Source: Candidatus Zambryskiibacteriota bacterium (lineage in GTDB: Bacteria > Patescibacteriota > Minisyncoccia > Phycocordibacterales > WO2-35-19). Taken from it: DNA of 64,000 nt. A program made the translations under genes and the position numbers. The DNA lies in the NCBI GenBank assembly GCA_003233455.1, contig QILQ01000043.1, positions 442 through 64,441 of the forward strand, written 5' to 3'. Below, in pieces: positions 19,254-48,959 of this stretch (the first letter of the stretch is position 1; each line of letters begins with the position of its first letter). Under the pieces are notes generated by a model. It made no database searches and had not been told where the DNA came from. It worked only from the letters and a program-made list of their open reading frames with translations.

Positions 19254-19568
19254 TTGACAAGATATATACAACATATATACTTCTTATATATGGATACTGT
19301 GATATTTAAAATAGATAAAAAACTTAAACAAGCTGCCCAAAAACAAGCTAAAAAGGGAGGTTTTTCTTTATCTGACTATTATAGATCAGTTACTATTCCT
19401 TTGGCGGAAGGGAAAAGTAGGATTGGTTTAATTCGGGAGGAACAGTTAAATGCAAAAACTGTTCGTGAACTTTTAAAGATTTCAAAAGATATTAAAGAAG
19501 GTAAAAATCTATCTCCTGTTTTTGATAATGTAGAAGATGCTATAAATTATTTAAAATGTGCTAAATGA
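19254..19568 (+). CDS. RelB/DinJ-family antitoxin
   Basis: Paralogous to 34590-34853 and 63330-63635 (shared KDIKEGKN...F.NVEDAINYL C-terminus). Confidence 0.55.
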   Translation: MTRYIQHIYFLYMDTVIFKIDKKLKQAAQKQAKKGGFSLSDYYRSVTIPLAEGKSRIGLIREEQLNAKTVRELLKISKDIKEGKNLSPVFDNVEDAINYLKCAK

Positions 19569-19621
19569 GAATAGATTATCACAGAAGATTTGTTAAAAAT
19601 TTTATTAAATTATTTATATAA
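19565..19621 (+). pseudogene. Truncated YafQ/RelE-type toxin remnant (MRIDYHRRFVKNFIKLFI*)
   Basis: Resembles N-terminus of 63640-63900 toxin; stops after 18 codons. Confidence 0.3.
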
Positions 19622-19684
19622 TAATTTAATAATTCAATAACAAAAAATAATCACATCATCCATAATAATTTTATTTTTTAAGAT

Positions 19685-19735
19685 ACTATACAAATGGGAC
19701 GATCGTCCCGTTTGTATAGTCTGTTTTTTATTTTG
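19685..19735 (+). terminator. Perfect 36-bp palindrome ACTATACAAATGGGACGATCGTCCCGTTTGTATAGT followed by T-tract; second copy at 41672-41706
   Basis: GC core stem + U-run; both copies adjacent to TA cassettes in r-protein operons. Confidence 0.5.
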
Positions 19736-19828
19736 AAAATATTGACAAAAAATTTGCAAAAAATTGATAATTCTGTTAATCTATCAAAAGCCAAACGGCG
19801 TTTTTTATTGAGGATATGAATTAAAGAT

Positions 19829-20461: not shown

Positions 20462-20516
20462 AAATTTTAAAATTGATACATTTAATGAAAATTCTAAATT
20501 GAAAATTTAAATCATC

Positions 20517-21176
20517 ATGGAAGCGACAATATATAATCAAACAGGTAAAGAAGAAGGAAAAATAAAACTTCCGGAAAAAGTTTTCGGTTTATCTTGGAAT
20601 ACAGATTTGGTGCATCAAGTAGCCACTTCTATGATGGCAAACAAAAGAATTCCTATCGCTCATACAAAAAACAGAGGTGAAGTTTCTGGTGGTGGCAAAA
20701 AACCATGGAGACAAAAAGGCACCGGCAGAGCTAGACATGGTTCAAGAAGAAGTCCTATTTGGGTTGGTGGTGGAGTTACTCATGGACCCAGAAATGACAA
20801 AGACTATTCAAAAAAAATCAATAAAAAAATGAAAGTCAAAGCTCTTTTTACGGTGCTTTCTCGCAAATTCAAGGAGGGAGAAGTGATTTTTATTGATAAT
20901 ATTTCTTTGAAAGCTCCAAAAACAAAAGAAGCGAAAAATATAATAAATTCTTTATCAAAAATAAAAGAATTAAGTTCTATCACCAGAAGAAAAAATGCCG
21001 CCTTTATCGCTCTTCAACAAAAAAATGAAAATATTTTAAAAAGTTTTAGTAATTTTGGTAATTTAGAAATCGGTCAATTGAAGGATTTGAATGTTTTAGA
21101 CCTTTTGCAATACAGATATCTTGTTGTGACTGATCCGGAAAAATCAATAACAATTCTTTCTTCCAAGATAAAATAA
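20517..21176 (+). CDS. rplD: 50S ribosomal protein L4
   Basis: WRQKGTGRARHGS motif. Confidence 0.9.
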   Translation: MEATIYNQTGKEEGKIKLPEKVFGLSWNTDLVHQVATSMMANKRIPIAHTKNRGEVSGGGKKPWRQKGTGRARHGSRRSPIWVGGGVTHGPRNDKDYSKKINKKMKVKALFTVLSRKFKEGEVIFIDNISLKAPKTKEAKNIINSLSKIKELSSITRRKNAAFIALQQKNENILKSFSNFGNLEIGQLKDLNVLDLLQYRYLVVTDPEKSITILSSKIK

Positions 21177-21181
21177 AAATT

Positions 21182-21469
21182 ATGACAATAGATTTAAAAG
21201 CAAAATACGCGAATATTTTATTAAGACCCCGTATTACCGAGAAGGCTAATTCTATGGCAGATAAAAATATTCACACTTTTGAAATTGCGTCAAAGGCGAC
21301 CAAAAAACAGGTTATTGAAACAATTAAAGCTTTTTATAAAATTTCTCCCGTGAAAGTGAATATCGTTAAAAATCCCGCCAAGAAAGTTTTTATAAAAGGA
21401 AAGAAAGGTGTTAAAACAGGAGTGAAAAAAGCTTATGTCTATTTAAAAGAAGGAGATAAGATAGAATAG
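21182..21469 (+). CDS. rplW: 50S ribosomal protein L23
   Basis: LLRPRITEKA; synteny rplD-rplW-rplB. Confidence 0.9.
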   Translation: MTIDLKAKYANILLRPRITEKANSMADKNIHTFEIASKATKKQVIETIKAFYKISPVKVNIVKNPAKKVFIKGKKGVKTGVKKAYVYLKEGDKIE

Positions 21470-21483
21470 TTCAAAATAAAAAT

Positions 21484-22332
21484 ATGGCAATAAAAAATTA
21501 CAAACCAACATCAAAATCAAGGAGACATATGTCTATTGTCTCTTATAAATCTATTTTAACTAAAAACAAACCTCTAAAAGCTCTCACTTCCGGCGTGAAG
21601 AGATCTGTCGGACGAAATAATGCGGGCAGGATAACAACGCGTCATAAAGGTGGCGGTCATAAGAGATTATTTAGAGAGATTGATTTTAAATACAACAAAA
21701 TCAATATTCCTTATAAAATAACTTCTGTGGAATATGACCCAAATCGCACCGGGTTTATCGGTATTGCTGTTTATGAAGATGGCGAGAAAAGATATATTCT
21801 TTTGCCAAAAAATATTAAAGTTGGCGAAAAACTTTTAACAGGAGAAAAGGCGGAAATAAAACAAGGTAATAGATTACCGTTAAAGAGTATACCGACTGGC
21901 GCTTTTGTTTATAATGTGGAACTAAAACCTCTTGGGGGAGCGAGAATTGCTCGTTCAGCCGGCAATTTTGTTCAAGTATTGGCTAAGGATGCTGGTTATG
22001 TTGATTTAAAAATGCCATCTAGTGAAATACGCAAAGTGAAAGAAACTTGTTGGGCCAGTATTGGCACGGTTTCAAATGAAGAAAAAAGACTTGAAAATTA
22101 TGGAAAGGCCGGAAAAAGCAGGTGGAAAGGTATTCGTCCAACAGTACGAGGTACCGCAATGAATCCGGTTGACCATCCGCATGGTGGCGGTGAAGGTAGG
22201 CAAGGCAGAGGCAGGAAACGAGCGGTTTCTAAATGGGGTAAACCAACCGGTAAAGGTCAAAAATCGCGACGCACTAAAAAATATTCTGATAAATTTATTA
22301 TTAGCAGAAGAAAAGTAGGCAAGAAGAGATAA
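21484..22332 (+). CDS. rplB: 50S ribosomal protein L2
   Basis: GTAMNPVDHPHGGGEG motif. Confidence 0.95.
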   Translation: MAIKNYKPTSKSRRHMSIVSYKSILTKNKPLKALTSGVKRSVGRNNAGRITTRHKGGGHKRLFREIDFKYNKINIPYKITSVEYDPNRTGFIGIAVYEDGEKRYILLPKNIKVGEKLLTGEKAEIKQGNRLPLKSIPTGAFVYNVELKPLGGARIARSAGNFVQVLAKDAGYVDLKMPSSEIRKVKETCWASIGTVSNEEKRLENYGKAGKSRWKGIRPTVRGTAMNPVDHPHGGGEGRQGRGRKRAVSKWGKPTGKGQKSRRTKKYSDKFIISRRKVGKKR

Positions 22333-22334
22333 TT

Positions 22335-22742
22335 ATGAATAATATAAAAATTTCACTGATTGATATTGATAAAAGAAAAAAGCTGAATATAAGATCCGGA
22401 GATACAGCGCGTGTTACTCAAAAAATAATTGAAAAAGATAAAAAGACCGGCAAGCCAAAAACCAGATTGCAGGATTTTGAAGGATTATGTTTGGCAGTCA
22501 AGCACGGTAAAGAAGCCGGAGGCACTTTTACTTTGAGAAAAGTGGCGTCAGGGGTGGGAGTTGAAAGAATTTTTCCAATTTATTCTCCAATGATAGAAAA
22601 AATAAAAATAATTAAACGCTCCAAAGTTCGTCGCGCCAAACTTTATCATATTCGTGATAAAGCGGCTAAAGAAATTCGTCGTCAAATGAGAAATGTCAGA
22701 GCTTTACCTAAAGTGGAAGAAATTGAACTTGACACAAAATAA
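22335..22742 (+). CDS. rplS: 50S ribosomal protein L19 (unusual position directly after rplB)
   Basis: RSGDTARV...FEGLCLAVKHG...GVGVERIFPIYSP...VRRAKLYHIR matches L19. Confidence 0.8.
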   Translation: MNNIKISLIDIDKRKKLNIRSGDTARVTQKIIEKDKKTGKPKTRLQDFEGLCLAVKHGKEAGGTFTLRKVASGVGVERIFPIYSPMIEKIKIIKRSKVRRAKLYHIRDKAAKEIRRQMRNVRALPKVEEIELDTK

Positions 22743-22841
22743 CTCCTTCACTCATTCATTCACTCACTCTTCATTTTTGGTCTACTAATGGGAACACCTC
22801 ACCCCTCGCTTCGCGTAGGAGAGGGGAAAGAAAAACTTAAC
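22728..22841. repeat. 114-bp direct repeat copy 1 (rplS 3' end + GGGTGAGG palindromic element); copy 2 at 23668-23784
   Basis: Near-identical (3-bp indel) copies flank the HD-domain gene. Confidence 0.75.
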
Positions 22842-22893: not shown

Positions 22894-23541
22894 TTAAAGC
22901 ACTTTTAGATTTTCTGCAATTTTTAACATTTCAGAAATACTCTTGTCTTCTAATGATTCTTTCACATTATTCCAAAGAGCAAGATTTGTTTTTGCCCAAT
23001 TCAAATATTTTGTTTTTGCTAAATCAGTATAAAAATAAATTCCTTCGTCCAGTAATTTATTTTGTTCAGAAGTAATTTTATTTGCTAGCTTTTGTATATC
23101 TATTTTATTTTGTTTGATATAATTATTTGTAAATAAAATTGGTGTAATTGGTAAAGACTTGAACAAAGTATCGGCATCACTTAATGATTTTCCTTCATTT
23201 GAAATATTTTGATTTCTAATTGCAGTATGAGCTTCCATAATTATATTTTCAATTTTGATGATTTCCTCATCAGAATATCCGCTTTTAATCAAAATATTAT
23301 TACGGTAACTATTCGCTTCTTCAGGTTCAGAATTAACTTTTACAATATAATTCAAATCATGAACAAGTGCCGCTGACTCAACAAAAAATAAATTGGCGTT
23401 GATTGATTTAGCAAAAACAATTGCTTTATTTTTTACAAAAACAATATGGTGCCATCCATGAAAAAGTAGTTTTTTACTTTTTTTTAAGTATACCTTTTCA
23501 AGGTTTAAAGTTAAATTATTTATCTTGCTTTTTTGTTTCAT
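22894..23541 (-). CDS. HD-domain phosphohydrolase-like protein
   Basis: HGWHH...VHD...SDAD matches H..H/HD/D motif set of the HD superfamily. Confidence 0.55.
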   Translation of the reverse strand: MKQKSKINNLTLNLEKVYLKKSKKLLFHGWHHIVFVKNKAIVFAKSINANLFFVESAALVHDLNYIVKVNSEPEEANSYRNNILIKSGYSDEEIIKIENIIMEAHTAIRNQNISNEGKSLSDADTLFKSLPITPILFTNNYIKQNKIDIQKLANKITSEQNKLLDEGIYFYTDLAKTKYLNWAKTNLALWNNVKESLEDKSISEMLKIAENLKVL

Positions 23542-23667
23542 AACCCAGGTGCACCAATCTTTTGTTATATATTATACAAACTCAATATATAATTATTACA
23601 TAAACTGTAAATAATCATACTATCAAGATTATTTTACTGATTTTTATAAAATTATGCAACAAAAATA

Positions 23668-23784
23668 CTTGACACAAAATAACTCCTTCACTCATTCATT
23701 CACTCACTCTTCATTTTTGGTCTACTAATGGGAACACCTCACCCCTCGCTTCGCGTATAAGGAGAGGGGAAAGAAAAACTTAAC
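23668..23784. repeat. Direct repeat copy 2 (see 22728-22841)
   Basis: Direct comparison. Confidence 0.75.
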
Positions 23785-29172: not shown

Positions 29173-29708
29173 ATGAGTAAACAACAAATACAAGAAAGTA
29201 GAAATTGGTATGCCATCCATACTTATTCCGGTTATGAGAATGCGGTAACCAGAAACCTTATGAGTCTTTAGGTATGGAAGACAAAATTTTTGATGTTATT
29301 GTCCCAACTGAAAAAAAAATAAAAATAAAAGGTAATAAAAGAGTTGAAGAAAAAGAAAAAATTTATCCTGGTTATGTTTTGGTGAATATGATTGTTACCG
29401 ATGATTCATGGTATGTAGTCAGAAATACACCAAGAGTGACTGGTTTTGTTGGTGCTGGGGTTTTTCCGGTGCCTCTCGCTCAAAAAGAAGTAGATGAACT
29501 TTTTAAGAGAATGAATTCAGATAAAGTTAAACATAATATAGATTTATCTTTAGACGATGCTGTTAAAATTGTTGACGGACCGTTTAAAGATTTGGAAGGT
29601 AAAGTGGGGGAGGTGGATGAAGAAAGGGGTAAAGTCAAAATATTAGTGCCGATGTTTGGTAGAGAAACACCGGTAGAGTTGGATTTCTTGCAAGTGAAGA
29701 AGATTTAA
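29173..29708 (+). CDS. nusG: Transcription antiterminator NusG, interrupted by a frameshift near 29269-29274 (N-terminal 32 aa in one frame, rest in +2 frame)
   Basis: MSKQQ..WYAIHTYSGYEN (frame A) then SLGMEDKIFDVIVPTE...PGYVLVNM, KOW domain (frame B); TAG-gt-ATG junction. Confidence 0.7.
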
Positions 29709-29834
29709 TTGACTTAATTTTTTATTTAAGTTAATATCATGTTTCGTCGAAAGCGAATTTGCAAAAGTTCTCGGGTCGCTTCTTACAGAGCTCAACCAGA
29801 CTTTTAAAATTCATTTTCGGCTTCACATTCAATT

Positions 29835-30260
29835 ATGGCAAAGAAAATCACCAAAAAAATAAAATTAGTTATAGCGGCAGGTAAAGCAACACCTGCTCCT
29901 CCTGTCGGCACTGCTTTGGGTCCGGCTGGTATCAACATCGGTGAATTTGTTACTAAATTTAATGAGGCTACCAGAGAGATGACTGGTGCTTTAGTGCCAG
30001 CTGAAATTTCTGTTTATGAAGATAGGACTTTTGATTTTATATTAAAAACTTCGCCTGCTTCAAGTCTTATTATGAAGGCGATTAACATTAAAAAAGGTTC
30101 GGGCAAAACTCCAGTTCAGAAAGTTGGATCCATTACTCGCCAACAATTGGAAGAAATTGCTCAAACAAAAATGGTAGACCTAAACGCCACCAATTTGGAA
30201 GCAGCTGTTAAAATTATCGTCGGCACTTGTCAAAGTATGGGAGTGGAGGTGAAGGGATAA
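29835..30260 (+). CDS. rplK: 50S ribosomal protein L11
   Basis: PPVGTALGPAGINI motif. Confidence 0.9.
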   Translation: MAKKITKKIKLVIAAGKATPAPPVGTALGPAGINIGEFVTKFNEATREMTGALVPAEISVYEDRTFDFILKTSPASSLIMKAINIKKGSGKTPVQKVGSITRQQLEEIAQTKMVDLNATNLEAAVKIIVGTCQSMGVEVKG

Positions 30261-33930: not shown

Positions 33931-34188
33931 ATGAAAACTAAAAAGACAAAAAATAATAAAGTAATAAATTTACCTGTACTTATTGAGCAAGATGAAAACG
34001 GGATGTTTGTTGGATCTGTGCCATCTTTACGCTCTTGTTATACTCAAGGTAAAACTCTTGAAGAACTTTATAAAAACCTAGAAGAAGTGGTTGAGCTTTG
34101 TACTGAGGCAGATAAAGAATTTTTTGGAAATAAAATCTATAGCAATAAAATTATAGGATTTCAAAATCTTTCTTTTTCACTTCGTTAA
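33931..34188 (+). CDS. hicB: HicB-family antitoxin
   Basis: IEQDENGMFVGSVPSLRSCYTQGKTLEELYKNLEEVVE matches HicB (UPF0150). Confidence 0.6.
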   Translation: MKTKKTKNNKVINLPVLIEQDENGMFVGSVPSLRSCYTQGKTLEELYKNLEEVVELCTEADKEFFGNKIYSNKIIGFQNLSFSLR

Positions 34189-34415
34189 TGTCACATTTAT
34201 CACCAATTTCACCAAAAAAACTCATAAAACTTTTAAAAAATGAGGGCTTTGTTTGTGTTAAAATAAAAGGAAGTCATCATTTTTTCTTGAATAATATTGA
34301 TAAAAGAACTACTTCTGTACCACTGCACGGTAATAAAGATATTGGGGTGGGACTTTTGCATAAGATTATTAAAGATATAAAAATGTCTGTTGAAAATTTT
34401 AAAAAGAAATTATAA
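34188..34415 (+). CDS. hicA: HicA-family toxin (mRNA interferase)
   Basis: KLLKNEGF...KGSHHFF...TSVPLHGNKDIGVGLLHKIIKDI matches HicA. Confidence 0.6.
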   Translation: MSHLSPISPKKLIKLLKNEGFVCVKIKGSHHFFLNNIDKRTTSVPLHGNKDIGVGLLHKIIKDIKMSVENFKKKL

Positions 34416-34426
34416 AAGTGGAGTGT

Positions 34427-34456
34427 CCTAATTGGGGGGTGAATTTAGCCTAATTG
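34427..34456. repeat. Motif CCTAATTGGGGGGTGAATTTAGCCTAATTG; inverted near-identical copy at window end 63978-64000
   Basis: 22/23 identity to reverse complement of 63978-64000. Confidence 0.5.
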
Positions 34457-34589
34457 TAATTTTTTTGGAATACCACCTGAACCAGAACCACACAATGCTT
34501 TAAATGGTGCTATGACAGCTTATGAACTTTTTAAAAAATTAGAAAATAATGTTTGACATAAATTAACCGTTGTATATACTTTAGATAAT

Positions 34590-34853
34590 ATGAAAACTGT
34601 ATTAAATGTAAAAATGCTAAAAAAGGAAGCACAAAAAATTGCCAAAGAGGCTGGTATTCCTCTGAGTCTTGTGGTAGATAATGGATTGAGAAAATTTGTA
34701 GCTCGCAGAGCAATTACCGTTGAAGCGCCACTTATTCCAAATGCAAAAACTGCCAAGATTTTGGATAGAGTTTTGAAAGATATCAAAGAGGGAAAAAATA
34801 TTGAAGGACCATTCTATTCTGTAGAGGAATTTATGAAAGGTCTTAAATCCTAG
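34590..34853 (+). CDS. RelB/DinJ-family antitoxin
   Basis: Paralog of 19254 and 63330 ORFs. Confidence 0.55.
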   Translation: MKTVLNVKMLKKEAQKIAKEAGIPLSLVVDNGLRKFVARRAITVEAPLIPNAKTAKILDRVLKDIKEGKNIEGPFYSVEEFMKGLKS

Positions 34854-34862
34854 CTTTGAATT

Positions 34863-35126
34863 ATGTTGCTCGTTTACAGGCACAAAAAATTTTCTAAGGA
34901 ATTTAAGAAGCTTCTTAGGGTTGTTCAAGAAAAATTTGAGCAAAAAATAGGAATTTTTGTCATAGATCAGTATTCGGTTGGATTTAATAACCATGGTCTA
35001 AAAAGGAAATATAACGGTTGTAGGAGTATTGATATTACTGGAGATTATAGGGCAATATATTACATAAATAACAGTATTGCAATTTTTATCCATATAGGCA
35101 CTCATCATCAGCTTTATGGAAAATAA
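34863..35126 (+). CDS. YafQ/RelE-family toxin
   Basis: C-terminal IHIGTHHQLY (GTHSDLF-like); paralog of 63640-63900. Confidence 0.6.
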   Translation: MLLVYRHKKFSKEFKKLLRVVQEKFEQKIGIFVIDQYSVGFNNHGLKRKYNGCRSIDITGDYRAIYYINNSIAIFIHIGTHHQLYGK

Positions 35127-36947: not shown

Positions 36948-37289
36948 ATGTCACGATCACTTAAAAAAGGCCCTTATGTTGATGAAAGGGTGCTCAAAAA
37001 AATAGAAGGCAAAAAACCTGCAGATACTGCGGTTATTAAGACTTGGTCTAGAGCTTGTGCTATTGCTCCTGAGATGATTGGTTTCACTTTTGGAGTGCAT
37101 AATGGCAGGGAACATATTGAAGTTTTTGTCACAGAAGATATGGTTGGTCATAAACTTGGAGAATTTTCTTTGACTCGCAAATTTATAAAACATGGAGGTA
37201 AGATGCAAAAAGAACTTGAAGCCAAGAAAAAAGAAGATGAAATAAAAGCGGCTAAATCCGCTAAAGCGACATCTGAATCAAAAAAATAA
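36948..37289 (+). CDS. rpsS: 30S ribosomal protein S19 with Lys-rich C-terminal tail
   Basis: SLKKGPYVD...[28 protein letters not shown]. Confidence 0.85.
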
Positions 37290-37405
37290 GTTAAACATAC
37301 AAATATGCAAATGATGCAAATAATACAAATGAATGCTAATCCATATCCAAATTATATTCGTAGTTATTCGTTGATTAGTATAATTAGTAGATTGGTATAT
37401 TAAAA
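37290..37405. repeat. ~115-bp intergenic element copy 1, starts at rpsS stop codon (copy 2 at 39752-39865)
   Basis: Near-identical (1 mismatch) to copy 2; contains conserved 32-codon [35 protein letters not shown]. Confidence 0.7.
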
Positions 37406-37443
37406 CGGCACAATTAAATAGCTATAGACAATCTCCCAGAAAA

Positions 37444-37797
37444 GTGAGATTAGTAGCCGATACCATTAGAGGTATATCTACCAAAGAAGCTAGAATTAAA
37501 TTGGATTTTATAACTAAACGAGCCGCTGGTCCGTTAGGTAAACTTCTAAACTCCGCTATTGCTAACGCGAAAAATTTAGGTGCTGATATGGATAATCTTT
37601 GGATTAAAACTATTACTGTTAATGGTGGCAGAATATTATACAGACGCAGACCAGTTTCTCACGGCTCGGCTCATCCTATTCGTAAACGCACTTCGCGTAT
37701 TACTGTTGTTTTGGCGGAAAAACAAAAAACCGCAACTCAAAAAACCAAATTAGAAGCTGAAAAATTCGCGCTTAATCAACCAACAAGTAAAAAATAA
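37444..37797 (+). CDS. rplV: 50S ribosomal protein L22 (true start probably ~35 nt upstream at a non-ATG codon)
   Basis: Upstream in-frame sequence encodes ...SYRQSPRKVRLVADTIRG, the conserved L22 N-terminus, with no ATG. Confidence 0.8.
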   Translation: MRLVADTIRGISTKEARIKLDFITKRAAGPLGKLLNSAIANAKNLGADMDNLWIKTITVNGGRILYRRRPVSHGSAHPIRKRTSRITVVLAEKQKTATQKTKLEAEKFALNQPTSKK

Positions 37798-37801
37798 AAT
37801 T

Positions 37802-38461
37802 ATGACTCACACAGTACACCCATATGCTCATAGATTAGGTATTATTCGCGATTGGAAATCGCGTTGGTTTGAGGTGAAATCCAAATATAAAGAAAATTTA
37901 AAAAAGGATGTCCTAATTTTTGAATATCTTAAAAAGCGTCTAAAAGGATTTTTTGTAAATTCTATTGAAATTGAAAGAAGTGTTAAAACTTTTAGAATTA
38001 TTATTGAAACCTCTCGTCCCGGACTTATTATTGGCAGAAGTGGCGAAGGTATGAATAAACTTAGAGAAGACATTATTCATTTTATAAAGAAACGCGATTT
38101 AAATTCTAGAGAAGAATTAAAAATAGATGTGAAAGAGGTAAAATCACCGGAATCAAATGCTATGATAGTAGCTCAAATGATAGCTGAAGGGCTTGAAAAA
38201 AGAATGCCTTTCAGAAGGGTAATGAAAACTATGATTGAAAAAGCTTTTGCTAATCGTGATGTAAAAGGGGTTAAAATTTCTCTTTCTGGTATGCTTGGTG
38301 GTTCAAAAATGGCTAGATTAGAGTCTAAAAAGATTGGTCGAATTCCTTTGCAAACATTACGTGCCGATATTGATTATGCAAAATATGAAGCTCTTCAACC
38401 ACTTGGAAAAATCGGCATAAAAGTTTGGATTTATAAAGGTGAGATTTTTGATAAAAAATAA
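37802..38461 (+). CDS. rpsC: 30S ribosomal protein S3
   Basis: KH domain RPGLIIGRSG. Confidence 0.9.
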   Translation: MTHTVHPYAHRLGIIRDWKSRWFEVKSKYKENLKKDVLIFEYLKKRLKGFFVNSIEIERSVKTFRIIIETSRPGLIIGRSGEGMNKLREDIIHFIKKRDLNSREELKIDVKEVKSPESNAMIVAQMIAEGLEKRMPFRRVMKTMIEKAFANRDVKGVKISLSGMLGGSKMARLESKKIGRIPLQTLRADIDYAKYEALQPLGKIGIKVWIYKGEIFDKK

Positions 38462-38473
38462 TTCTTAATTATT

Positions 38474-38893
38474 ATGTTATTTCCTAAAAAAATTAAACAT
38501 AGAAAGTGGCAAACTATGCGCAAGAATCCTAAAAAAGTCGGACCGGCAACTCGTGGCATCAAAGTATCTTTTGGGTCGTATGGTCTTAAAGCAATGACTC
38601 CTGGCAGAATTACTTCCAATCAGATTGAATCTGCCAGAAAAGCCATAACTAAATCTATAAGTAAAACTGGTAGAGTTTGGATACGCATTTTTCCTGATAT
38701 GCCTTTTACCAAAAAACCGGCGGAAGTGAAGATGGGTAAAGGTAAGGGAGATTTAGAGGGATATCACGCTAAAGTTTTATCTGGACAAATTATATTTGAA
38801 GTTGATGGAGCCTCAAATTCTTTATCTATTGAGTCTTTGCGTAAAGGTGGCACCAAGATGCCAATAAAAACTAGAATTGTGGCTCGCAATTAA
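38474..38893 (+). CDS. rplP: 50S ribosomal protein L16
   Basis: KHRKWQ...GRI family signature. Confidence 0.9.
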
Positions 38894-38906
38894 AATATTT
38901 AATTAA

Positions 38907-39089
38907 ATGAAAAAAGGATTATTAAAAAAGAATAAAGATGATTTAATGAAAGAATTAGACGAAAAACGTCTTTCTTTGCGCGATATTAGATTTGGTATTG
39001 CTGGAAGTAAAAGTAAAAATGTTAAAGAACAAAAAACAATAAAAAAAGATATTGCCAGAATAATGACTGAATTAAGAATTATGAATTAA
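38907..39089 (+). CDS. rpmC: 50S ribosomal protein L29
   Basis: Size, position, ELRxxxxxELxxxLxxLRF pattern. Confidence 0.8.
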   Translation: MKKGLLKKNKDDLMKELDEKRLSLRDIRFGIAGSKSKNVKEQKTIKKDIARIMTELRIMN

Positions 39090-39094
39090 GAATT

Positions 39095-39367
39095 ATGAAT
39101 GAAAAAAAAGAAAAAAAGAATATAAATAAGGAAAAGAAAACAAACGGTAAAATTTTAAGCGGAGTAGTAATATCGGCTAAAATGCGAGATACTTGTACTG
39201 TTTTGGTTAGCAGATTTATAAAGCATAAAAAATACAGAAAATATTATAAAGTAAGCAAAAAATATAAAGCGCATGATGCTGGCAATATTAAAAAAGTGAG
39301 AGATAAAGTTAAGATAATGGAATGTCGCCCCATTTCTAAAGATAAACATTTTATGATAATAAATTAA
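39095..39367 (+). CDS. rpsQ: 30S ribosomal protein S17
   Basis: GVVISAKMRDTCTVLV...KYKAHD pattern. Confidence 0.85.
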   Translation: MNEKKEKKNINKEKKTNGKILSGVVISAKMRDTCTVLVSRFIKHKKYRKYYKVSKKYKAHDAGNIKKVRDKVKIMECRPISKDKHFMIIN

Positions 39368-39373
39368 AAAATT

Positions 39374-39751
39374 ATGATTCAGCCCCAAACAATAATAAAA
39401 ATAGCGGATAATTCAGGTGCCAAATTGGGGCGAGTATTTAAGGTATTGGGTAGTTCTAAAAAAAGATACGCCAGAGTGGGAGAGTTGGTTATCTTTTCTG
39501 TTCAAAAGGCAGAGCCCCGCAAAGAAATTAAAAAGAAAGCGGTGCTTTTGGGTTTAATTGTTCGCCAAAAAGCTCCACTTAGAAGAAAAGACGGTTCTTA
39601 TATTCGTTTTGATGAAAATGCGGCTGTTGTGGTAGAGCGAAAAAAAGGCGAGATTATTCCCAAAGCCGGAAGAATATTTGGTCCGATACCGAGAGAAATC
39701 GCTGAAGCGGGATATCAAGCTATTGTTTCTTTGGCACCTGAAATAATTTAG
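39374..39751 (+). CDS. rplN: 50S ribosomal protein L14
   Basis: MIQPQTIIKIADNSGAK. Confidence 0.9.
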   Translation: MIQPQTIIKIADNSGAKLGRVFKVLGSSKKRYARVGELVIFSVQKAEPRKEIKKKAVLLGLIVRQKAPLRRKDGSYIRFDENAAVVVERKKGEIIPKAGRIFGPIPREIAEAGYQAIVSLAPEII

Positions 39752-39865
39752 TTAAACATACAAATATGCAAATGATGCAAATGATACAAATGAATGCTAA
39801 TCCATATCCAAATTATATTCGTAGTTATTCGTTGATTAGTATAATTAGTAGATTGGTATATTAAA
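39752..39865. repeat. ~115-bp element copy 2, starts at rplN stop codon
   Basis: See 37290-37405. Confidence 0.7.
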
Positions 39866-39868
39866 TTT

Positions 39869-40093
39869 ATGAAAATCAAAAAAGGAGACAAAGTAAAAAT
39901 AATAACAGGTAAAGACAAAGGTAAAACAGGTGTTGTTTTAAAAGCGTATCCTAAAGATTTTTTAGTATTGGTTGAAAATATAAACAAGAAAAAAATTCAT
40001 CAAAAACCGAGAAAACAAGGAGAAAAAGGTAAAATAATAGAACAATCAGCACCGATACATGTATCAAATGTTAAAAAGATTAAGGATAAGTAA
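39869..40093 (+). CDS. rplX: 50S ribosomal protein L24 (short form)
   Basis: [25 protein letters not shown] motif. Confidence 0.75.
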
Positions 40094-40096
40094 AAT

Positions 40097-40145
40097 AATA
40101 ACCCCACCTCAACCCCTTCCCAAAGAGGAGGGGCGAAAAGAGGAG
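40097..40145. repeat. Degenerate CCCCACCTCAACCCCTTCC...GAGGAGGGG palindromic repeat
   Basis: Family member between rplX and rplE. Confidence 0.45.
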
Positions 40146-40167
40146 AATAAAGATAACAAAAATCAAA

Positions 40168-40716
40168 ATGAAATTAATGAAAGAAAAAACAAAAGAAGCT
40201 TTTAAAGAACTCAAAAAACAATTGGGTTTAAAAAATATTATGCAATCTCCGAAAATTGTTAAAGTGGTTATCAATTCCGGAGTTGGTTCTCTTAGCGATA
40301 AAAAGAAAATAGATATGATAATAGACAGACTGGCTAAAATAACCGGTCAAAAAGCCATTAAAAGAGGAGCTAAGAAATCGGTTGCTTCTTTTAAATTAAG
40401 AGAAGGAGATATTGTTGGAGTTCAAATTACTTTACGAGGAGAAAAGATGTGGAGTTTTTTAGACCGTCTTTTTAGTATCGCTTTGCCTCGGACTAAAGAT
40501 TTTAGAGGTATTTCTCTTAAAGCAATAGATGAAATGGGTAATTATACTCTGGCTATCAGAGAACATACTGTATTTCCGGAAACTTCAGATGAAGATTTAA
40601 AGGATATTTTTAGTTTTGCCGTTACTATTGTCACAAATTTAAAAGGCAAAAATGAAGCTTTGGAATTTTTTAAGGCTCTTAGTTTTCCTTTTAAAAAAGC
40701 TACGACCAAAAAATAA
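40168..40716 (+). CDS. rplE: 50S ribosomal protein L5
   Basis: L5 family blocks. Confidence 0.9.
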   Translation: MKLMKEKTKEAFKELKKQLGLKNIMQSPKIVKVVINSGVGSLSDKKKIDMIIDRLAKITGQKAIKRGAKKSVASFKLREGDIVGVQITLRGEKMWSFLDRLFSIALPRTKDFRGISLKAIDEMGNYTLAIREHTVFPETSDEDLKDIFSFAVTIVTNLKGKNEALEFFKALSFPFKKATTKK

Positions 40717-40778
40717 ATAAACTTTAAAAAAGTCCTTACGTCCGTCCTTACGTCCGTAAGTACTTTTTTAGTATGTGA

Positions 40779-41243
40779 TTGAAATCTTTCCAAAGAGATG
40801 ATAAATTGTTAGTAATTATGGTTATAGATATAGAGCTTACTCTAAATAAATTTGGATTTGGGAAGATTGCTGAAAATAAATTTCAACTGTTTTGGTTGAG
40901 GTTTTCTAAATGGAAGATTCCCAACAAACATTCCATTGATTTAGGAAGAAAAAATGATTATAAGCTAAATTGGTGTGGGGATAAAAATGTGATATACTGT
41001 AAGTCTATGATTCAAAATTATATTGAAAATTACTTAAATAAAGCCCAATACGAAATGATAGATGGTGGAAAGAAATTTTATGCGGAAATAAAAAATTTGC
41101 GTGGTGTTTGGGCTACAGGAAAAACCCTTGAAGAATGTCGACGAAATTTAGCTAATACAATTGAAGGGTGGTTGATTTTAAGATTAAAGAAAAATCTCAC
41201 TATTCCAAACTTTAAAGTACCGAGTGTTCGTTTAAAAGTATAA
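40779..41243 (+). CDS. HicB-like antitoxin (extended N-terminus)
   Basis: C-terminal FYAEIKNLRGVWATGKTLEECRRNLANTIEGWL matches HicB core. Confidence 0.5.
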   Translation: MKSFQRDDKLLVIMVIDIELTLNKFGFGKIAENKFQLFWLRFSKWKIPNKHSIDLGRKNDYKLNWCGDKNVIYCKSMIQNYIENYLNKAQYEMIDGGKKFYAEIKNLRGVWATGKTLEECRRNLANTIEGWLILRLKKNLTIPNFKVPSVRLKV

Positions 41244-41249
41244 ATTTAT

Positions 41250-41471
41250 ATGTCTAAATTAGGTCCAATATCATGGATCAAGTTTGTAAGAAGAATGAGA
41301 GTTCTTAATTTTAGTGGACCATATCAAGAAGGCAAGCATCCATACATGATAAAAGGTAATCTTTCTATTACTATTCCAAATCCTCATGAGAGGGATATTG
41401 GTGTAGATTTATTAATTCGTATTTTAAGACAAGCGGGAATTTCTAGATTAGTTTGGATGAAATTTAAGTAA
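41250..41471 (+). CDS. hicA: HicA-family toxin
   Basis: ...KHPYMIKGNLSITIPNPHERDIGVDLLIRILRQAGIS matches HicA. Confidence 0.55.
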   Translation: MSKLGPISWIKFVRRMRVLNFSGPYQEGKHPYMIKGNLSITIPNPHERDIGVDLLIRILRQAGISRLVWMKFK

Positions 41472-41499
41472 TTTTATTTAAAATTATACATTAAAAATT

Positions 41500-41668
41500 G
41501 CAATTTTTTACGGTCGTGTTATAAACCAGATTGTTGAGGCAGGAATGACCGAGGTAAGGCTGTGTGAGTATCAGGATATACATATGGTAGCCGGACTTTT
41601 CAGAAAAGCTCTGCTCTAGCCTAAACGAGGTTGCAATCGAAAGACGCAACCCCTTCTTTTTTATTTTA
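41500..41668 (+). ncRNA. Candidate small RNA / structured 3' region ending in a rho-independent terminator (GGTTGC..GCAACC + U-tract)
   Basis: 170-nt non-coding segment with internal complementarity; identity not established. Confidence 0.2.
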
Positions 41669-41671
41669 AAT

Positions 41672-41706
41672 ACTATACAAACGGGACGATCGTCCCAAGT
41701 GTGTAG
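41672..41706. terminator. Second copy of TATACAAACGGGACGATCGTCCC palindrome (bidirectional terminator candidate, comFC / hicBA)
   Basis: Matches 19685-19720 palindrome. Confidence 0.45.
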
Positions 41707-41723
41707 TGTTAAATATTTGAATT

Positions 41724-42386
41724 TTAATGAGCGATGAATAAACCAACTACTCTTTTAGCACCAGCAGAAACCAAAGCACGACGAGCTTCAAGTAAAGAAG
41801 CTCCGGTAGTGTAAACATCATCTAAAATTATTATTGTTCTATTTTTTAAATTTTTATCTGAATGCATTGATTTTTTTAGGTTCTTCATTCTTTCTTCTCT
41901 GTTCAATTTAGTTTGTCTTTTTGTTTCTCTTACTTTTTTTAAAGTATTATAAGAAACTTCCATATTATCGCCACTTAATTTTTTTATTTCTCCGCAAAGT
42001 TCTTCGCATTGATTAAATCCTCTTTTTCTTTTTTCTTTTCTACTCATTGGCATAGGAACTAAAAGAGGTAGGGTTCCTTCAAAAAGAGCAATTTCAGAAG
42101 AGATATCCATTAATTCTTCGTTTAGATAAACAGCCACTCTTTTTCTTAAAGCGGCATTATTTTTATATTTTATAAATTTTATTATTAACTTAACTATTTT
42201 GTTATTATAATCAAACAAAACAAAAATATCTTTTGAATAAACAGGCGATTTAGCTAAAAGATTTCGCATTGTTTCTGTGGGGAGTTCTAAAAGTTTTTTG
42301 ATTTTTATATCTTCTGGTGCCAGAGCATTTACTATGATTTCTAAAATTTTTTTTATCCAGTTTATAACTGACTTTAACATAAACAT
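41724..42386 (-). CDS. comFC: ComF-family protein (phosphoribosyltransferase domain)
   Basis: IILDDVYTTGASL PRTase motif. Confidence 0.7.
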   Translation of the reverse strand: MFMLKSVINWIKKILEIIVNALAPEDIKIKKLLELPTETMRNLLAKSPVYSKDIFVLFDYNNKIVKLIIKFIKYKNNAALRKRVAVYLNEELMDISSEIALFEGTLPLLVPMPMSRKEKRKRGFNQCEELCGEIKKLSGDNMEVSYNTLKKVRETKRQTKLNREERMKNLKKSMHSDKNLKNRTIIILDDVYTTGASLLEARRALVSAGAKRVVGLFIAH

Positions 42387-43648: not shown

Positions 43649-43903
43649 ATGAATCAAATAACATTTACAGCAAAAGAAGCAAAAAATAATTTTGGTAGGC
43701 TTTTAGATGAAGCTCGTCGTTCTCCTGTGGCTATAAACAAAAACGGCAGAAAAGTTGCTTTTGTGGTTTCTTATGAAGATTTTTCTCAATTTGAAGGAAT
43801 GGTAGATTCTTATTGGGGCAAAAAAGCTAAAACGGCAATAAAAAAAGGATATCTGACTGTTGCTGAAAGTAAAAAATTTGTAGATTCTATTTTAAATGCT
43901 TAA
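43649..43903 (+). CDS. Phd/YefM-family antitoxin
   Basis: N-terminal ITFTAKEAKNNFGRLLDEARRSPVAINKNGRKVAFVVSYEDF typical of Phd/YefM. Confidence 0.55.
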   Translation: MNQITFTAKEAKNNFGRLLDEARRSPVAINKNGRKVAFVVSYEDFSQFEGMVDSYWGKKAKTAIKKGYLTVAESKKFVDSILNA

Positions 43904-44168
43904 TATTAGATTTTCAAAATTATCAAAGAAATTTGTAGAAAGAGTTCCAATAAAACACAGAAGACAAATTGTTGAAAAATCTGTAAGTCTAAAAAATAAT
44001 CCTCTACCTTCGGATAGTAGGGCTATGAAGGGATTTCCGGGTTATTTTCGTGTTGATATTGGGGAATATAGGATTATTTATACAATTTCAGAATCTAAAA
44101 TAAATATTGAACTAATTGGTAAAAGAAACGACGACGAAGTTTATCGTAAATTTAAAAGACTTATGTGA
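43896..44168 (+). CDS. RelE/ParE-family toxin
   Basis: GYFRVDIGEYRIIYTI...IELIGKRNDDEVY; 8-nt overlap with antitoxin. Confidence 0.65.
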   Translation: MLNIRFSKLSKKFVERVPIKHRRQIVEKSVSLKNNPLPSDSRAMKGFPGYFRVDIGEYRIIYTISESKINIELIGKRNDDEVYRKFKRLM

Positions 44169-47931: not shown

Positions 47932-48959
47932 ATGGATGATTTAAATAAACTTATAGAACTTATGATTAAAGAAGGAGCTTCAGATTTGCATATTTCTGAA
48001 GGTAGAAATCCTTATATTAGGGTCTCCGGTCAATTAACACCTCTTTTAAAATATCAAAAATTTACTAAAATTTTGATAGAAAATATTGCCAACAAAATTA
48101 TCCCCGAATCTAAAAAAATCATTTTCAAATCTTCTCAAAGTGCTGATTTTGCTTATAGCCATAATGGCAACAGATTTAGGGTTCATGTTTTTTTGGACCA
48201 GCAAAGAATTTGTATGACTTTTCGTTATATTCCCAAAAAAATACCGTCGCTTACCGAATTAAATTTGCCAAATGATTTGGAAAATTTTGCCAGATTAAAA
48301 TCGGGTTTCTTTTTAGTGGTAGGTCCGACCGGACATGGTAAATCAACCACTCTCGCTTCTTTAATAGAGACTATATAATTACCATAGAGGATCCAATAGA
48401 ATATTTGTTTACTGCCAAGAAATCTATTATTCATCAAAGAGAAATTGGGTTGGATACACCAAATTTCGCTTCCGCTTTGCATGATTCTTTTAGAGCTGAC
48501 GCGAATGTTATTATGGTTGGCGAAATGAGAGATATTGATACTATAGCTACCGCGGTTTCTGCCGCGGAAACTGGTCATCTAGTGCTTTCTACTCTGCATA
48601 CTAATAATGCTGCTCAAACAGTTGATCGTATTATAGATTCATTTTCTGCCAGTCAACAAAACCAAGTCCGTATTCAATTAGCTGCTTCTTTATCTGGCAT
48701 CTTTTCTCAAAGACTTATTCCCAAAATATCAGGTGGTCTCATTCCGGCTTATGAGCTTTTAGTGAATAATGTGGCTGTTTCAAATCTTATTAGGGACAAG
48801 AGAACTCACGAATTAAATACTATAATTGAAACTGGGTCGCAAGAAGGTATGATTGATTTCAATAGATGTTTGGTGGAAAAAGTAAATAAAGGCGAAATCA
48901 GTATTGAAAATGCTTATCTTTATTCCACTAATCCGCGTTCTCTGGAAAAAATGTTATAA
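47932..48959 (+). pseudogene. pilT: Twitching-motility ATPase PilT split into two ORFs (47932-48378 and 48405-48959) by an apparent 2-bp insertion near 48366-48372
   Basis: Walker A VGPTGHGKSTT in ORF1; ITIEDPIEY...REIGLDT...HLVLSTLHTN in shifted frame; removing 2 nt gives LIDYIITIEDPIE. Confidence 0.7.

What the first reader, a model, noticed from the sequence alone, without database searches (positions are those of the whole stretch)
40779..41706. hicBA cassette truncates the spc ribosomal operon after rplE
After rplE the expected rpsN/Z-rpsH-rplF-rplR-rpsE genes are absent. In their place are a HicB-like and a HicA gene, about 170 nt of structured non-coding sequence ending in a terminator, and the second copy of the GGGACGATCGTCCC palindrome. 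These abut the convergent comFC gene. Either the operon is split in this lineage or the cassette marks a rearrangement breakpoint.
Basis: partly seen in the sequence, partly recalled or inferred. Interest (0 to 1): 0.5.

Follow-up and report, generated by a model that had tools for sequence, protein, structure and literature searches.

The report
TA cassette at an old operon end
A small hicBA toxin-antitoxin pair sits after ribosomal gene rplE, but it did not cut the operon: the operon was already split in the ancestor of this group of tiny (CPR) bacteria, and the cassette arrived later in a gap that tolerates insertions.

Summary
The sequence features are real. rplE (40168-40716) is followed by a HicB-like gene, hicA, 252 nt of non-coding DNA with a terminator-like hairpin and a GC-rich palindrome, then convergent comFC. 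No rpsZ/rpsH/rplF/rplR/rpsE lies in the window.

The causal reading is wrong. Twenty-six related Candidatus Zambryskibacteria genomes also lack rpsZ-rpsE after rplE. In 22 of them comFC follows rplE within reach. The spacer runs from 1 nt to 9.8 kb, and the most basal lineages have 1-28 nt and no hicBA. Only four lineages carry hicBA; three form a well-supported subclade nested inside the split-operon clade.

The missing genes (rpsZ through secY, adk, map) start about 6.3 kb upstream of the window start, on the same strand, about 47 kb before the rplE stop. Their upstream junction has no palindrome and no TA module.

The cassette is an ordinary compact "class 2" hicBA module, one of about ten TA modules in 73 kb. 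The non-coding stretch is strain-specific, matches no Rfam family, and folds no better than shuffled sequence apart from its two hairpins.

Most of that stretch, 63 codons at 40818-41006, is a copy of an unrelated, highly conserved tiny CPR protein. Low interest.

The parts
40168..40716 (+). rplE (uL5). Last gene of the middle fragment of the ribosomal-protein cluster (argS-rpsS...rplE).
   Evidence: Pfam Ribosomal_L5 and L5_C. The same gene order is seen in an independent JGI contig.
40724..40771 (.). Hairpin flanked by an A-run and a T-run just after the rplE stop. It looks like a bidirectional intrinsic terminator and contains a 12-nt tandem duplication.
   Evidence: dG -16.5 kcal/mol, z -4.9 against shuffles. 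Absent from the related cassettes.
40818..41006 (+). Copy of a tiny conserved CPR/DPANN protein gene (MVIDIELTLNRFGFGKIAENKFQ... family). It is altered after codon 40, has lost its stop, and is in frame with hicB.
   Evidence: 113 homologous clusters, E down to 1.7e-17. Alignment. Identity by codon position is 78-90 / 88-100 / 45-62%, a coding signature. No Pfam, PHROG or PADLOC hit. JGI calls a 141-aa fusion.
40990..40998 (+). Extended -10-like box TGaTATACT, ending 8 nt before the hicB ATG. Probable own promoter of the cassette, with a leaderless or near-leaderless mRNA.
   Evidence: The equivalent TGTGnTATAAT is conserved at the same position in L011, L020 and L021, and conservation starts there. 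Promoter function is inferred.
41007..41243 (+). hicB-like antitoxin, 78 aa, UPF0150 family, no DNA-binding domain.
   Evidence: PF21748 E 6.7e-26. Matches PDB 2DSY (TTHA0281) at E 1.7e-14. 87-94% amino-acid identity to L011, L020 and L021.
41250..41471 (+). hicA toxin, 73 aa, 6 nt after hicB.
   Evidence: PF07927, 30.4 bits against a cutoff of 27. A profile of five HicAs hits the solved HicA structures 1WHZ, 9SVK, 6G26_E and 4C26, and the Gly-x-His motif aligns.
41472..41723 (.). Strain-specific non-coding insert between hicA and comFC. GC rises to 43% in a ~31% GC genome.
   Evidence: Absent from L011, L020 and L021, where hicA and comFC are 0-47 nt apart. No blastn or tblastx match in 120 related loci. 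No match in viral contigs and only a marginal 38-nt hit in plasmids. No Rfam hit. Fold z-scores are not significant.
41629..41667 (+). Terminator-like hairpin (GGTTGC...GCAACC) followed by CCTTCTTTTTTATTTT.
   Evidence: dG -9.1, z -2.95. The consensus scan did not list it because its loop exceeds 8 nt.
41672..41707 (.). 36-nt palindrome, copy 2 (core GGGACGATCGTCCC at 41683-41696), 17 nt from the comFC stop.
   Evidence: dG -21.3, z -5.5. Weak minus-strand terminator call.
41724..42386 (-). comFC (ComF-family phosphoribosyltransferase), convergent with rplE and hicBA.
   Evidence: PF00156 and TIGR00201 E 2e-25. Follows rplE in 22 of 26 relatives.
19685..19720 (.). 36-nt palindrome, copy 1, followed by CTGTTTTTTATTTT. 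A canonical plus-strand terminator lying between a decayed TA module and rplC.
   Evidence: dG -24.4, z -6.9.
19254..19621 (+). Decayed TA module between rpsJ and rplC: a RelB-type antitoxin-like gene (19254-19568) plus an 18-codon toxin stub (19565-19621) that overlaps it by ATGA.
   Evidence: Its DNA is homologous to the antitoxin genes at 34599 and 63384 (repeat family D6). Sequence read directly. The stub's identity as a toxin remnant is inferred.

Best explanation
The window comes from a Candidatus Zambryskibacteria (Parcubacteria, CPR) genome. In the ancestor of its clade, the S10-spc ribosomal-protein cluster was already broken into three co-oriented pieces:
1. tuf-rpsJ-rplCDWB;
2. argS-rpsS...rplE;
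3. rpsZ-rpsH-rplF-rplR-rpsE-rplO-secY-adk-map-ndk.

rplE therefore ends its own transcription unit and meets the 3' end of the convergent comFC gene. This convergent spacer carries no promoter that an insertion could disrupt. It has become a variable region, holding anything from 1 nt to a 9.8-kb island in different genomes.

In one sub-lineage a compact 'class 2' hicBA module was inserted next to the comFC 3' end. It consists of a small HicB with no DNA-binding domain, placed upstream of hicA. It has been kept since; in one descendant hicA is internally deleted.

By homology, HicA is a ribosome-independent endoribonuclease with a catalytic His, and the HicB-like protein inhibits it by covering the active site. 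The pair would then act as an addiction or abortive-infection module. It appears to have its own extended -10 promoter right at the hicB start codon.

The window strain later gained about 290 nt upstream: a terminator hairpin and a damaged copy of an unrelated tiny gene. It also gained 252 nt downstream: orphan sequence, a terminator hairpin and a 36-nt palindrome. The palindrome is a hairpin repeat whose other copy serves as the terminator behind a decayed TA module between rpsJ and rplC.

Shown: gene content, synteny, the order of events, and family membership by sequence. Inferred: transcription signals, toxin activity and biological role.
For: Split is clade-wide:
- 26 in-group loci lack S14/S8/L6/L18/S5 within 10 kb of rplE, whereas most outgroups keep them.
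- comFC follows rplE in 22 of the 26, with spacers of 1-9840 nt.
- argS, never rplB, precedes rpsS in every in-group locus with enough upstream sequence. Outgroups L027 and L029 keep rplW-rplB-rpsS.

Order of events:
- In an NJ tree of S3+L16+L14+L5, the in-group is monophyletic in 200/200 bootstraps.
- L022 and L025 (spacers of 28 and 9 nt, no hicBA) are basal in 188/200.
- window+L020+L021 (all with hicBA) group in 187/200.

Missing genes located:
- JGI contig L085 is 99.97% identical to window 1-11888 and carries ATPase-rpsZ-rpsH-rplF-rplR-rpsE-rplO-secY-adk-...-map-ndk.
- 22 close relatives have the same intact block, and none has L5 or L24 upstream.

Cassette identity. It fits class 2 of Gerdes 2024 (PMC10865869).

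Own promoter and cassette boundaries.

TA density: about ten modules in 72.7 kb.

The junction is not an assembly artefact: it is identical in an independent JGI contig.
Against: - Placing L011, the fourth hicBA carrier, with the other three has only 44% bootstrap support. A single acquisition is therefore not proven.
- Third-codon identity of hicBA between the window and L020/L021 (73-74%) exceeds that of rplE (56-59%). This hints at later exchange of the cassette rather than strict vertical descent. The sample is small (73-78 codons).
- There are no transcript data. Promoters, terminators and leaderless translation are consensus-level inferences in an AT-rich genome, where 13 promoter-like sites were found against 11 expected.
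- All genomes are metagenome-assembled.
- Linkage of the distal spc block to the window rests on an 11.9-kb overlap with a contig from another assembly.
- One genome that NCBI also names 'Zambryskibacteria' keeps rplE-(two small ORFs)-rpsZ. The split therefore defines a subclade, not everything carrying that name.
Confidence: 0.85

Rival explanations
1. Insertion of the hicBA cassette, or a rearrangement it mediated or marks, cut the spc operon after rplE. The palindrome would be the scar shared by the breakpoints.
For: hicBA sits exactly where rpsZ is expected. A second palindrome copy lies at another interrupted point of the ribosomal cluster, between rpsJ and rplC, next to a TA remnant.
Against: - The same break exists without hicBA in 22 relatives, and six of them have rplE and comFC 1-28 nt apart.
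- Basal lineages lack the cassette.
- The palindrome is absent from all 120 related loci and from the ATPase/rpsZ junction.
- The cassette encodes no recombinase.
Confidence: 0.03
2. Hotspot with repeated gain. hicBA was not inherited from a single insertion. It entered or was exchanged in the rplE/comFC spacer more than once by horizontal transfer or recombination among Zambryskibacteria.
For: - Weak support for L011 grouping with the other carriers (88/200).
- hicBA third-codon identity to L020/L021 (73-74%) is above that of rplE (56-59%).
- The spacer holds unrelated cargo in different genomes: REC-domain gene, LexA-like island, methyltransferase/DUF262-like island, ABC transporter.
Against: - In all four carriers the cassette sits at the same position, directly against the comFC 3' end.
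- Against L011, hicBA third-codon identity (59-60%) equals that of rplE.
- Three carriers form a 94% bootstrap clade.
Confidence: 0.2
3. The 41472-41665 stretch encodes a strain-specific small RNA of about 125 nt (roughly 41530-41660). It would run from a TTGCAA-16-TGtTATAAA promoter-like site to the terminator hairpin, and might regulate hicBA or comFC.
For: - Locally raised GC (43% against ~31%).
- A promoter-like site read by eye.
- A hairpin plus T-run at the end.
- No ORF longer than 52 codons.
Against: - No better folded than shuffles.
- No Rfam match.
- No homologue in any relative, so no covariation test is possible.
- Promoter-like matches are at background frequency.
Confidence: 0.1
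4. The 141-aa ORF (40818-41243) is a real fusion protein: the tiny conserved beta-protein joined to HicB. It would be a three-part or modified TA system rather than a relic next to a normal hicB.
For: - The reading frame is open from 40818 to 41243, and JGI called it as one gene.
- The first 40 codons keep 32-35/40 identity to the family.
Against: - The family's C-terminal motif SFEINW is disrupted by a 6-aa insertion, and the stop is lost only in this strain.
- The other three cassettes start at the 78-aa HicB with a conserved -10 box that lies inside the putative fusion ORF.
- Family members elsewhere are stand-alone and not next to hicB.
Confidence: 0.1

Closest known systems
Class 2 hicBA modules (Gerdes 2024, mBio, PMC10865869)
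   Same: hicB lies upstream of hicA. HicB is small (78 codons; the class range is 63-103) and has no recognisable DNA-binding domain. The genes are 6 nt apart. HicA has the conserved Gly-x-His motif.
   Different: No functional data exist. In this strain the hicB frame is open upstream into an unrelated small gene. The host is a CPR bacterium, and the cassette lies at the end of a ribosomal-protein unit.
TTHA0281 of Thermus thermophilus (PDB 2DSY), UPF0150 family
   Same: E 1.7e-14 over residues 3-68 of the HicB-like protein. Same size and family (PF21748).
   Different: It is listed in PDB only as a hypothetical protein, and its partner was not examined here.
Classical hicAB of E. coli, Y. 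pestis and B. pseudomallei (review PMC11594946)
   Same: Same toxin family. A HicA profile hits 6G26_E and 4C26. The expected mechanism is the same: an RNase blocked by the HicB N-domain.
   Different: The gene order is reversed. HicB lacks the HTH/RHH domain, so the classical autorepression by HicB binding to an operator cannot apply as described.
Canonical spc operon (rplN-rplX-rplE-rpsN-rpsH-rplF-rplR-rpsE-(rpmD)-rplO-secY; Cerretti 1983, cited in PMC9297842)
   Same: Both halves keep their internal order. uL30 is missing between S5 and L15, as reported for CPR (seen in L085).
   Different: The operon is cut between rplE and rpsZ, and the distal half lies about 47 kb upstream of rplE rather than after it. 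The S10 operon is also cut, between rplB and rpsS.
Other Parcubacteria with DNA inserted between rplE and rpsZ (L027, L041, L044, L112)
   Same: The same junction is disturbed, by inserts of about 1 to 7 kb.
   Different: In those genomes rpsZ-rpsH... still follows on the same strand within a few kb. Here the two halves are fully separated and comFC has become the neighbour.

Membership tests
HicA toxin (PF07927) | Sequence match to the family profile above the curated threshold | tested here: met
   30.4 bits against a gathering score of 27, E 4.1e-07. A profile of five HicAs hits 1WHZ, 9SVK, 6G26_E and 4C26.
HicA toxin (PF07927) | Conserved Gly-x-His with the catalytic His (His24 in BpsHicA, His28 in YpHicA3; PMC11594946) | tested here: met
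   E-G-K-H30 in the window protein. The corresponding profile columns align with K-G-G-H of 1WHZ. This is alignment-based only.
HicA toxin (PF07927) | dsRBD-like alpha-beta-beta-beta-alpha fold | not tested
   No structure was predicted for HicA.
HicA toxin (PF07927) | RNase toxicity that is neutralised by the partner | not testable with these tools
   Needs expression experiments.
Class 2 hicBA (Gerdes 2024) | hicB upstream of hicA, closely linked | tested here: met
   hicB at 41007-41243, hicA at 41250-41471, 6-nt spacer.
Class 2 hicBA (Gerdes 2024) | Small HicB (63-103 codons) without a DNA-binding domain | tested here: met
   78 codons from the conserved start. Only the UPF0150 domain is found. 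Caveat: the frame is open to 141 codons in this strain.
HicB / UPF0150 (PF21748) | Profile match and a solved relative | tested here: met
   E 6.7e-26, full profile 1-64. 2DSY at E 1.7e-14.
Contiguous spc operon | rpsN/Z-rpsH-rplF-rplR-rpsE directly downstream of rplE | tested here: not met
   No tblastn hit in the window or in 26 in-group loci. comFC follows instead.
Contiguous spc operon | Distal block rpsZ...secY-adk-map intact | tested here: met
   L085 and 22 relatives. In L085 two TA modules lie between adk and map.
Intrinsic terminator | GC-rich hairpin followed by a T-run | tested here: inconclusive
   - 41629-41667: hairpin plus T6, but the loop is too long for the scan.
- Palindrome copy 1 at 19685-19720 has a clear T-run.
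- Palindrome copy 2 has none on the plus strand and only a weak call on the minus strand.
Known structured RNA (Rfam 15) | Covariance-model match in 41472-41723 | tested here: not met
   No hit at the gathering threshold and none at E<=10 inside the region.
ComF / ComFC | ComF-family profile with a C-terminal phosphoribosyltransferase domain | tested here: inconclusive
   TIGR00201 is the best hit (E 2.1e-25, 89.7 bits) but falls below its curated cutoff of 233.55. The PRTase domain is present.

The most novel reading that the evidence does not exclude
The junctions created when the ribosomal-protein cluster broke up in this Zambryskibacteria clade may act as integrase-free hot spots. The clearest case is the convergent rplE/comFC spacer. 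TA and defence cargo would be swapped between lineages at these sites. TA modules would systematically colonise the interior of essential, highly expressed operons, here about one per 7 kb and all co-oriented with their host operon. In addition, the open frame that joins a widespread but uncharacterised tiny beta-protein of CPR/DPANN to HicB could link that orphan family to toxin-antitoxin biology.
Probability: 0.15. Interest if true: 0.45.

Novelty: new member of a known kind. Interest (0 to 1): 0.2.

Why it matters
The S10-spc cluster is one of the most conserved gene orders in prokaryotes, so a break in it invites a mechanistic story. Here the story is simple and old. The cluster was split into three pieces in the ancestor of a CPR subclade, and the toxin-antitoxin cassette is a later passenger. 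This removes a false lead, namely that a TA insertion could break an essential operon.

It also leaves two modest points for genome-organisation specialists:
- a clade-level marker (rplE next to convergent comFC; argS before rpsS; rpsZ heading its own unit);
- a reduced genome unusually dense in TA modules, which sit inside housekeeping operons.

Tried and rejected
- **Rfam.** Searched at gathering threshold on the window and on seven relatives, and at E<=10 on the region and at E<=1 on three relatives. It found only tRNAs or noise.
- **Folding the non-coding stretch.** Not more stable than shuffles on the plus strand. The minus-strand z of -2.68 is explained by the two hairpins.
- **blastn and tblastx** of the non-coding stretch against all fetched loci. 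No homologue.
- **Other collections.** Plasmid collection: one marginal 38-nt hit. Exact-pattern scans of viral contigs for the non-coding core and for the palindrome: nothing.
- **Palindrome in relatives and at the ATPase/rpsZ junction.** Absent.
- **First attempt to find the clade's rplF.** Searching with an outgroup L6 gave only outgroup-like proteins. One NCBI 'Zambryskibacteria' genome among them had an intact rplE...rpsZ link, so it lies outside the split clade.
- **Walking off the window ends by exact-protein look-up.**
  - Failed for the cut map gene.
  - On the right side the JGI contig ends about 150 nt beyond the window.
  - Succeeded with ndk.
- **Bootstrap.** The first run timed out and was repeated with a faster distance routine.
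- **Tiny upstream protein.** No Pfam, PHROG or PADLOC family. Foldseek of the AlphaFold model (pLDDT 78.5, five strands) against PDB gave nothing below E 0.5.
- **Assembly chimera.** Considered and rejected, because the rplE-hicBA-comFC junction is identical in an independent JGI contig and the rplE-comFC adjacency recurs in 22 MAGs.
Full report
**What is in the sequence**

The window is AT-rich (about 31% GC). Its gene content and its closest relatives place it in Candidatus Zambryskibacteria, within Parcubacteria (CPR).

Around the finding the plus strand carries rpsS-rplV-rpsC-rplP-rpmC-rpsQ-rplN-rplX-rplE. rplE lies at 40168-40716 (Pfam). After it come:
- an ORF at 40779-41243 whose residues 80-143 are a UPF0150/HicB-like domain (E 6.7e-26);
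- hicA at 41250-41471 (PF07927, 30.4 bits against a cutoff of 27);
- 252 nt without a credible ORF;
- a ComF-family gene on the minus strand at 41724-42386.

GGGACGATCGTCCC occurs exactly twice in 64 kb, at 19696 and 41683, where 0.01 matches are expected. Each copy is the core of a 36-nt palindrome. tblastn with S14, S8, L6, L18 and S5 from a related genome finds nothing anywhere in the window.

**Corrections to the observation**

First, the non-coding stretch is not detectably structured.
- Folded as a whole it is no more stable than dinucleotide shuffles (z +0.82; z -0.59 for 41530-41662).
- It matches no Rfam family even at E<=10.
- Only three local hairpins around the cassette are significant: one flanked by A- and T-runs right after rplE (40724-40771, z -4.9), a terminator-like hairpin plus T-run at 41629-41667 (z -2.95), and the palindrome (z -5.5).

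Second, the HicB gene does not start at 40779. I aligned the four related cassettes (window, L011, L020, L021). Conservation begins about 20 nt before the ATG at 41007, with a TGTGnTATAAT box (TGaTATACT at 40990-40998 in the window). Upstream of that the sequences are unrelated. HicB is therefore 78 aa.

**The split is older than the cassette**

A genome-collection scan with uL5 returned 80 loci. In the 26 loci whose uL5 is 69-83% identical to the window's, none has S14/S8/L6/L18/S5 within 10 kb of rplE. Most loci with uL5 at or below 64% identity keep rplE-rpsZ-rpsH-rplF-rplR-rpsE downstream. A few of these (L032, L034, L048) have breaks of their own after rplE.

In 22 of the 26, the gene after rplE is the same convergent comFC, followed by pilM. 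The other four run off the contig or carry islands longer than the fetched flank. The rplE/comFC spacer is:
- 1, 1, 2, 3, 9 and 28 nt in six genomes;
- 194-1270 nt in ten further relatives;
- 2.2-9.8 kb in the remaining six.

Its cargo is unrelated from genome to genome. Examples are a single-domain receiver-like gene, membrane proteins, a LexA-like island, a methyltransferase/DUF262-like island and an ABC transporter. hicBA is present only in the window, L011, L020 and L021.

A neighbour-joining tree of S3+L16+L14+L5 (667 columns) gives these bootstrap values:
- in-group monophyletic, 200/200;
- L022 and L025 (spacers of 28 and 9 nt, no cassette) basal, 188/200;
- window+L020+L021 grouped, 187/200;
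- L011 added to that group, only 88/200.

The order of events follows: the operon was split first, and hicBA arrived later within one part of the clade.

The S10 operon is broken too. argS precedes rpsS in every in-group locus with enough upstream sequence, whereas outgroups keep rplW-rplB-rpsS.

**Where the missing genes are**

The window begins inside map, followed by ndk, DUF2238 and an RNase J-like gene. That is the tail of the spc-adjacent cluster as seen in an outgroup.

An exact-protein look-up of ndk returned a JGI contig (L085) that is 99.97% identical to window 1-11888 and extends 8.7 kb further upstream. Its gene order is: P-type ATPase, a 128-nt spacer, then rpsZ-rpsH-rplF-rplR-rpsE-rplO-secY-adk, a Gp49/HTH TA pair, a third hicBA, and map.

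rpsZ therefore starts about 6.3 kb before window position 1, on the same strand, about 47 kb upstream of the rplE stop. Neither the palindrome nor any TA module lies at the ATPase/rpsZ junction.

A metagenome scan with this S8 found 22 close relatives (S8 at least 73% identical) with the same intact rpsZ...ndk block. Eleven of them have at least 4.8 kb of upstream sequence, and none of those has L5 or L24 there. The usual upstream neighbours are a divergent tRNA-Ser(GCT), a small membrane protein and recG.

**What the cassette is**

The HicB-like protein matches TTHA0281 (PDB 2DSY, UPF0150) at E 1.7e-14.

A profile of five HicAs from this genome and its relatives hits the solved HicA structures 1WHZ, 9SVK, 6G26_E and 4C26. 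The Gly-x-His motif aligns (E-G-K-H30 in the window protein).

hicB upstream of hicA, a 6-nt spacer, and a 78-aa HicB with no DNA-binding domain together fit 'class 2' hicBA modules. Gerdes 2024 reports classes 1 and 2 as the most prevalent (PMC10865869). The HicAB review notes that HicB proteins lacking a DNA-binding domain are common (PMC11594946). HicAB has also been reported as frequent in ultra-small groundwater prokaryotes (PMC9938205).

By homology, HicA is a ribosome-independent RNase whose catalytic His is buried by HicB. This is inferred, not shown here.

The cassette is under purifying selection:
- HicB is 87-94% identical at the amino-acid level while third positions are 60-74% identical.
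- Against L011, third-position identity equals that of rplE (about 59%), consistent with co-divergence.
- Against L020 and L021 it is higher (73-74% against 56-59%), which leaves room for later exchange.

In L021, hicA carries an internal deletion.

**TA modules are everywhere in this genome**

In 72.7 kb (window plus L085) I count about ten modules:
- Gp49/HTH and a hicBA between adk and map;
- a weak ParE-like pair between map and ndk;
- DUF6922/AbiEii after ndk;
- a RelB-like antitoxin with an 18-codon toxin stub between rpsJ and rplC;
- hicBA and RelB/YafQ directly before argS;
- the hicBA after rplE;
- Phd/ParE between pilM and pilN;
- DUF6364/YafQ near the window end.

All lie on the same strand as their host operons. 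One of them next to an operon end is therefore not informative.

**The palindrome**

Copy 1 (19685-19720) is a perfect 16-bp stem followed by CTGTTTTTTATTTT. It sits about 60 nt after the toxin stub and just before a TTGACA-type promoter-like site for rplC, so it reads as a plus-strand terminator.

Copy 2 (41672-41707) has a degraded right arm and no T-run on the plus strand. The scan gives only a weak minus-strand call.

The palindrome is absent from all 120 related loci and occurs only in the two JGI contigs of the same population. The genome also holds another GC-rich hairpin family (CCCTCTCC...GGAGAGGG, six copies). I read the palindrome as a strain-specific hairpin or terminator repeat, not a recombination scar. 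A whole-genome copy count would settle this.

**The piece upstream of hicB**

Positions 40818-41006 are in frame with hicB, and JGI calls one 141-aa gene.

The first ~48 codons belong to a family of 50-60-aa proteins with the consensus MVIDIELTLNRFGFGKIAENKFQLFWLRFSKWxIPGKHSISFEINWRxK. It has 113 clusters, with E down to 1.7e-17. Named sources are several Patescibacteria phyla and one Nanoarchaeota MAG.

Codon-position identities of 78-90, 88-100 and 45-62% show that it is a real coding gene. Its neighbours differ from place to place. It has no Pfam, PHROG or PADLOC family. An AlphaFold model (five strands, pLDDT 78.5) has no PDB match better than E 0.5.

The window copy has a 6-aa insertion that disrupts the conserved C-terminal motif, and it has lost its stop. 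I take it as a damaged copy that happens to run into hicB. A true fusion is not excluded.

**Verdict**

The interpretation 'hicBA truncates the operon / marks a breakpoint' is not supported. The alternative 'the operon is split in this lineage' is correct, and the split predates the cassette.

The cassette is a new member of a well-known, very common TA class. The operon split is a clade-level curiosity in CPR genome organisation. Interest is low.

Noticed in passing
window 40818-41006; also L004 19573-19728, L005 2417-2490, L019 6006 onward: A tiny (50-60 aa), very conserved protein family (MVIDIELTLNRFGFGKIAENKFQ...SFEINW). It has 113 clusters across several Patescibacteria phyla and one Nanoarchaeota MAG. 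There is a clear coding signature, no known domain, a predicted five-strand all-beta fold with no PDB match, and variable neighbours. The window copy is damaged and in frame with hicB.
   Followed up: partly
window 37280-37404 and 39741-39865; L085 3621-3707: A ~90-125-nt repeat, 97-100% identical, fills three intergenic spacers inside ribosomal-protein operons (rpsS/rplV, rplN/rplX, rplF/rplR). It ends at or close to the start codon of the downstream gene. It is strain-specific (absent from relatives) and contains TTGATT...TATAAT-like motifs. It may be a spreading promoter or RBS cassette, or a MITE.
   Followed up: partly
window 17642-22742 and 36948-40716; L085 2400-9483: The ribosomal-protein supercluster is in three co-oriented pieces arranged 3-1-2 within about 55 kb. 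rplS (L19) follows directly after rplB (22335-22742). nusG-rplK (29274-30260) is not followed by rplA, rplJ or rplL.
   Followed up: partly
window 22727-22817 and 23667-23757: A perfect 91-nt direct repeat flanks a minus-strand gene that looks by eye like an HD-domain gene (22894-23541). The repeat starts inside the 3' end of rplS. It looks like a target duplication or a recent insertion.
   Followed up: no
window 831-2788, 19254-19621, 33931-35126, 41007-41471, 43649-44168, 63330-63900; L085 7037-8255: About ten toxin-antitoxin modules in 72.7 kb, all co-oriented with the surrounding operons. Several sit inside conserved operons (adk|map, map|ndk, rpsJ|rplC, pilM|pilN). The yafQ toxin gene ends within a few nt of the argS start. 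A hicBA also lies upstream of argS in the basal relative L025.
   Followed up: partly
window 47932-48959: The PilT-like ATPase is split into two ORFs (148 and 184 aa) in the window but is one intact 349-aa gene in the 99.75% identical JGI contig (L001). This is either a frameshift in this assembly or a strain difference.
   Followed up: no
L004 19737-20040: A GC-rich ~300-nt stretch with no credible ORF, ending in a strong terminator hairpin. It lies just after the tiny conserved gene and before msrB. No Rfam or ARAGORN hit. Possibly an undescribed RNA gene.
   Followed up: partly
L027, L041, L044, L112 (rplE/rpsZ spacer); L011, L016, L017, L026 (argS/rpsS spacer): The rplE/rpsZ junction carries inserts of about 1 to 7 kb in several other Parcubacteria lineages; the largest ORF in L027's insert looks by eye like a reverse transcriptase. 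The argS/rpsS spacer varies from about 70 nt to over 6 kb within the clade. Cluster junctions appear to be recurrent insertion sites.
   Followed up: partly
window 4821, 7440, 8707, 11172, 30273, 60333: Six copies of a GC-rich hairpin, CCCTCTCC-N(7-8)-GGAGAGGG, in intergenic regions. This is a second hairpin-repeat family, probably terminators.
   Followed up: no
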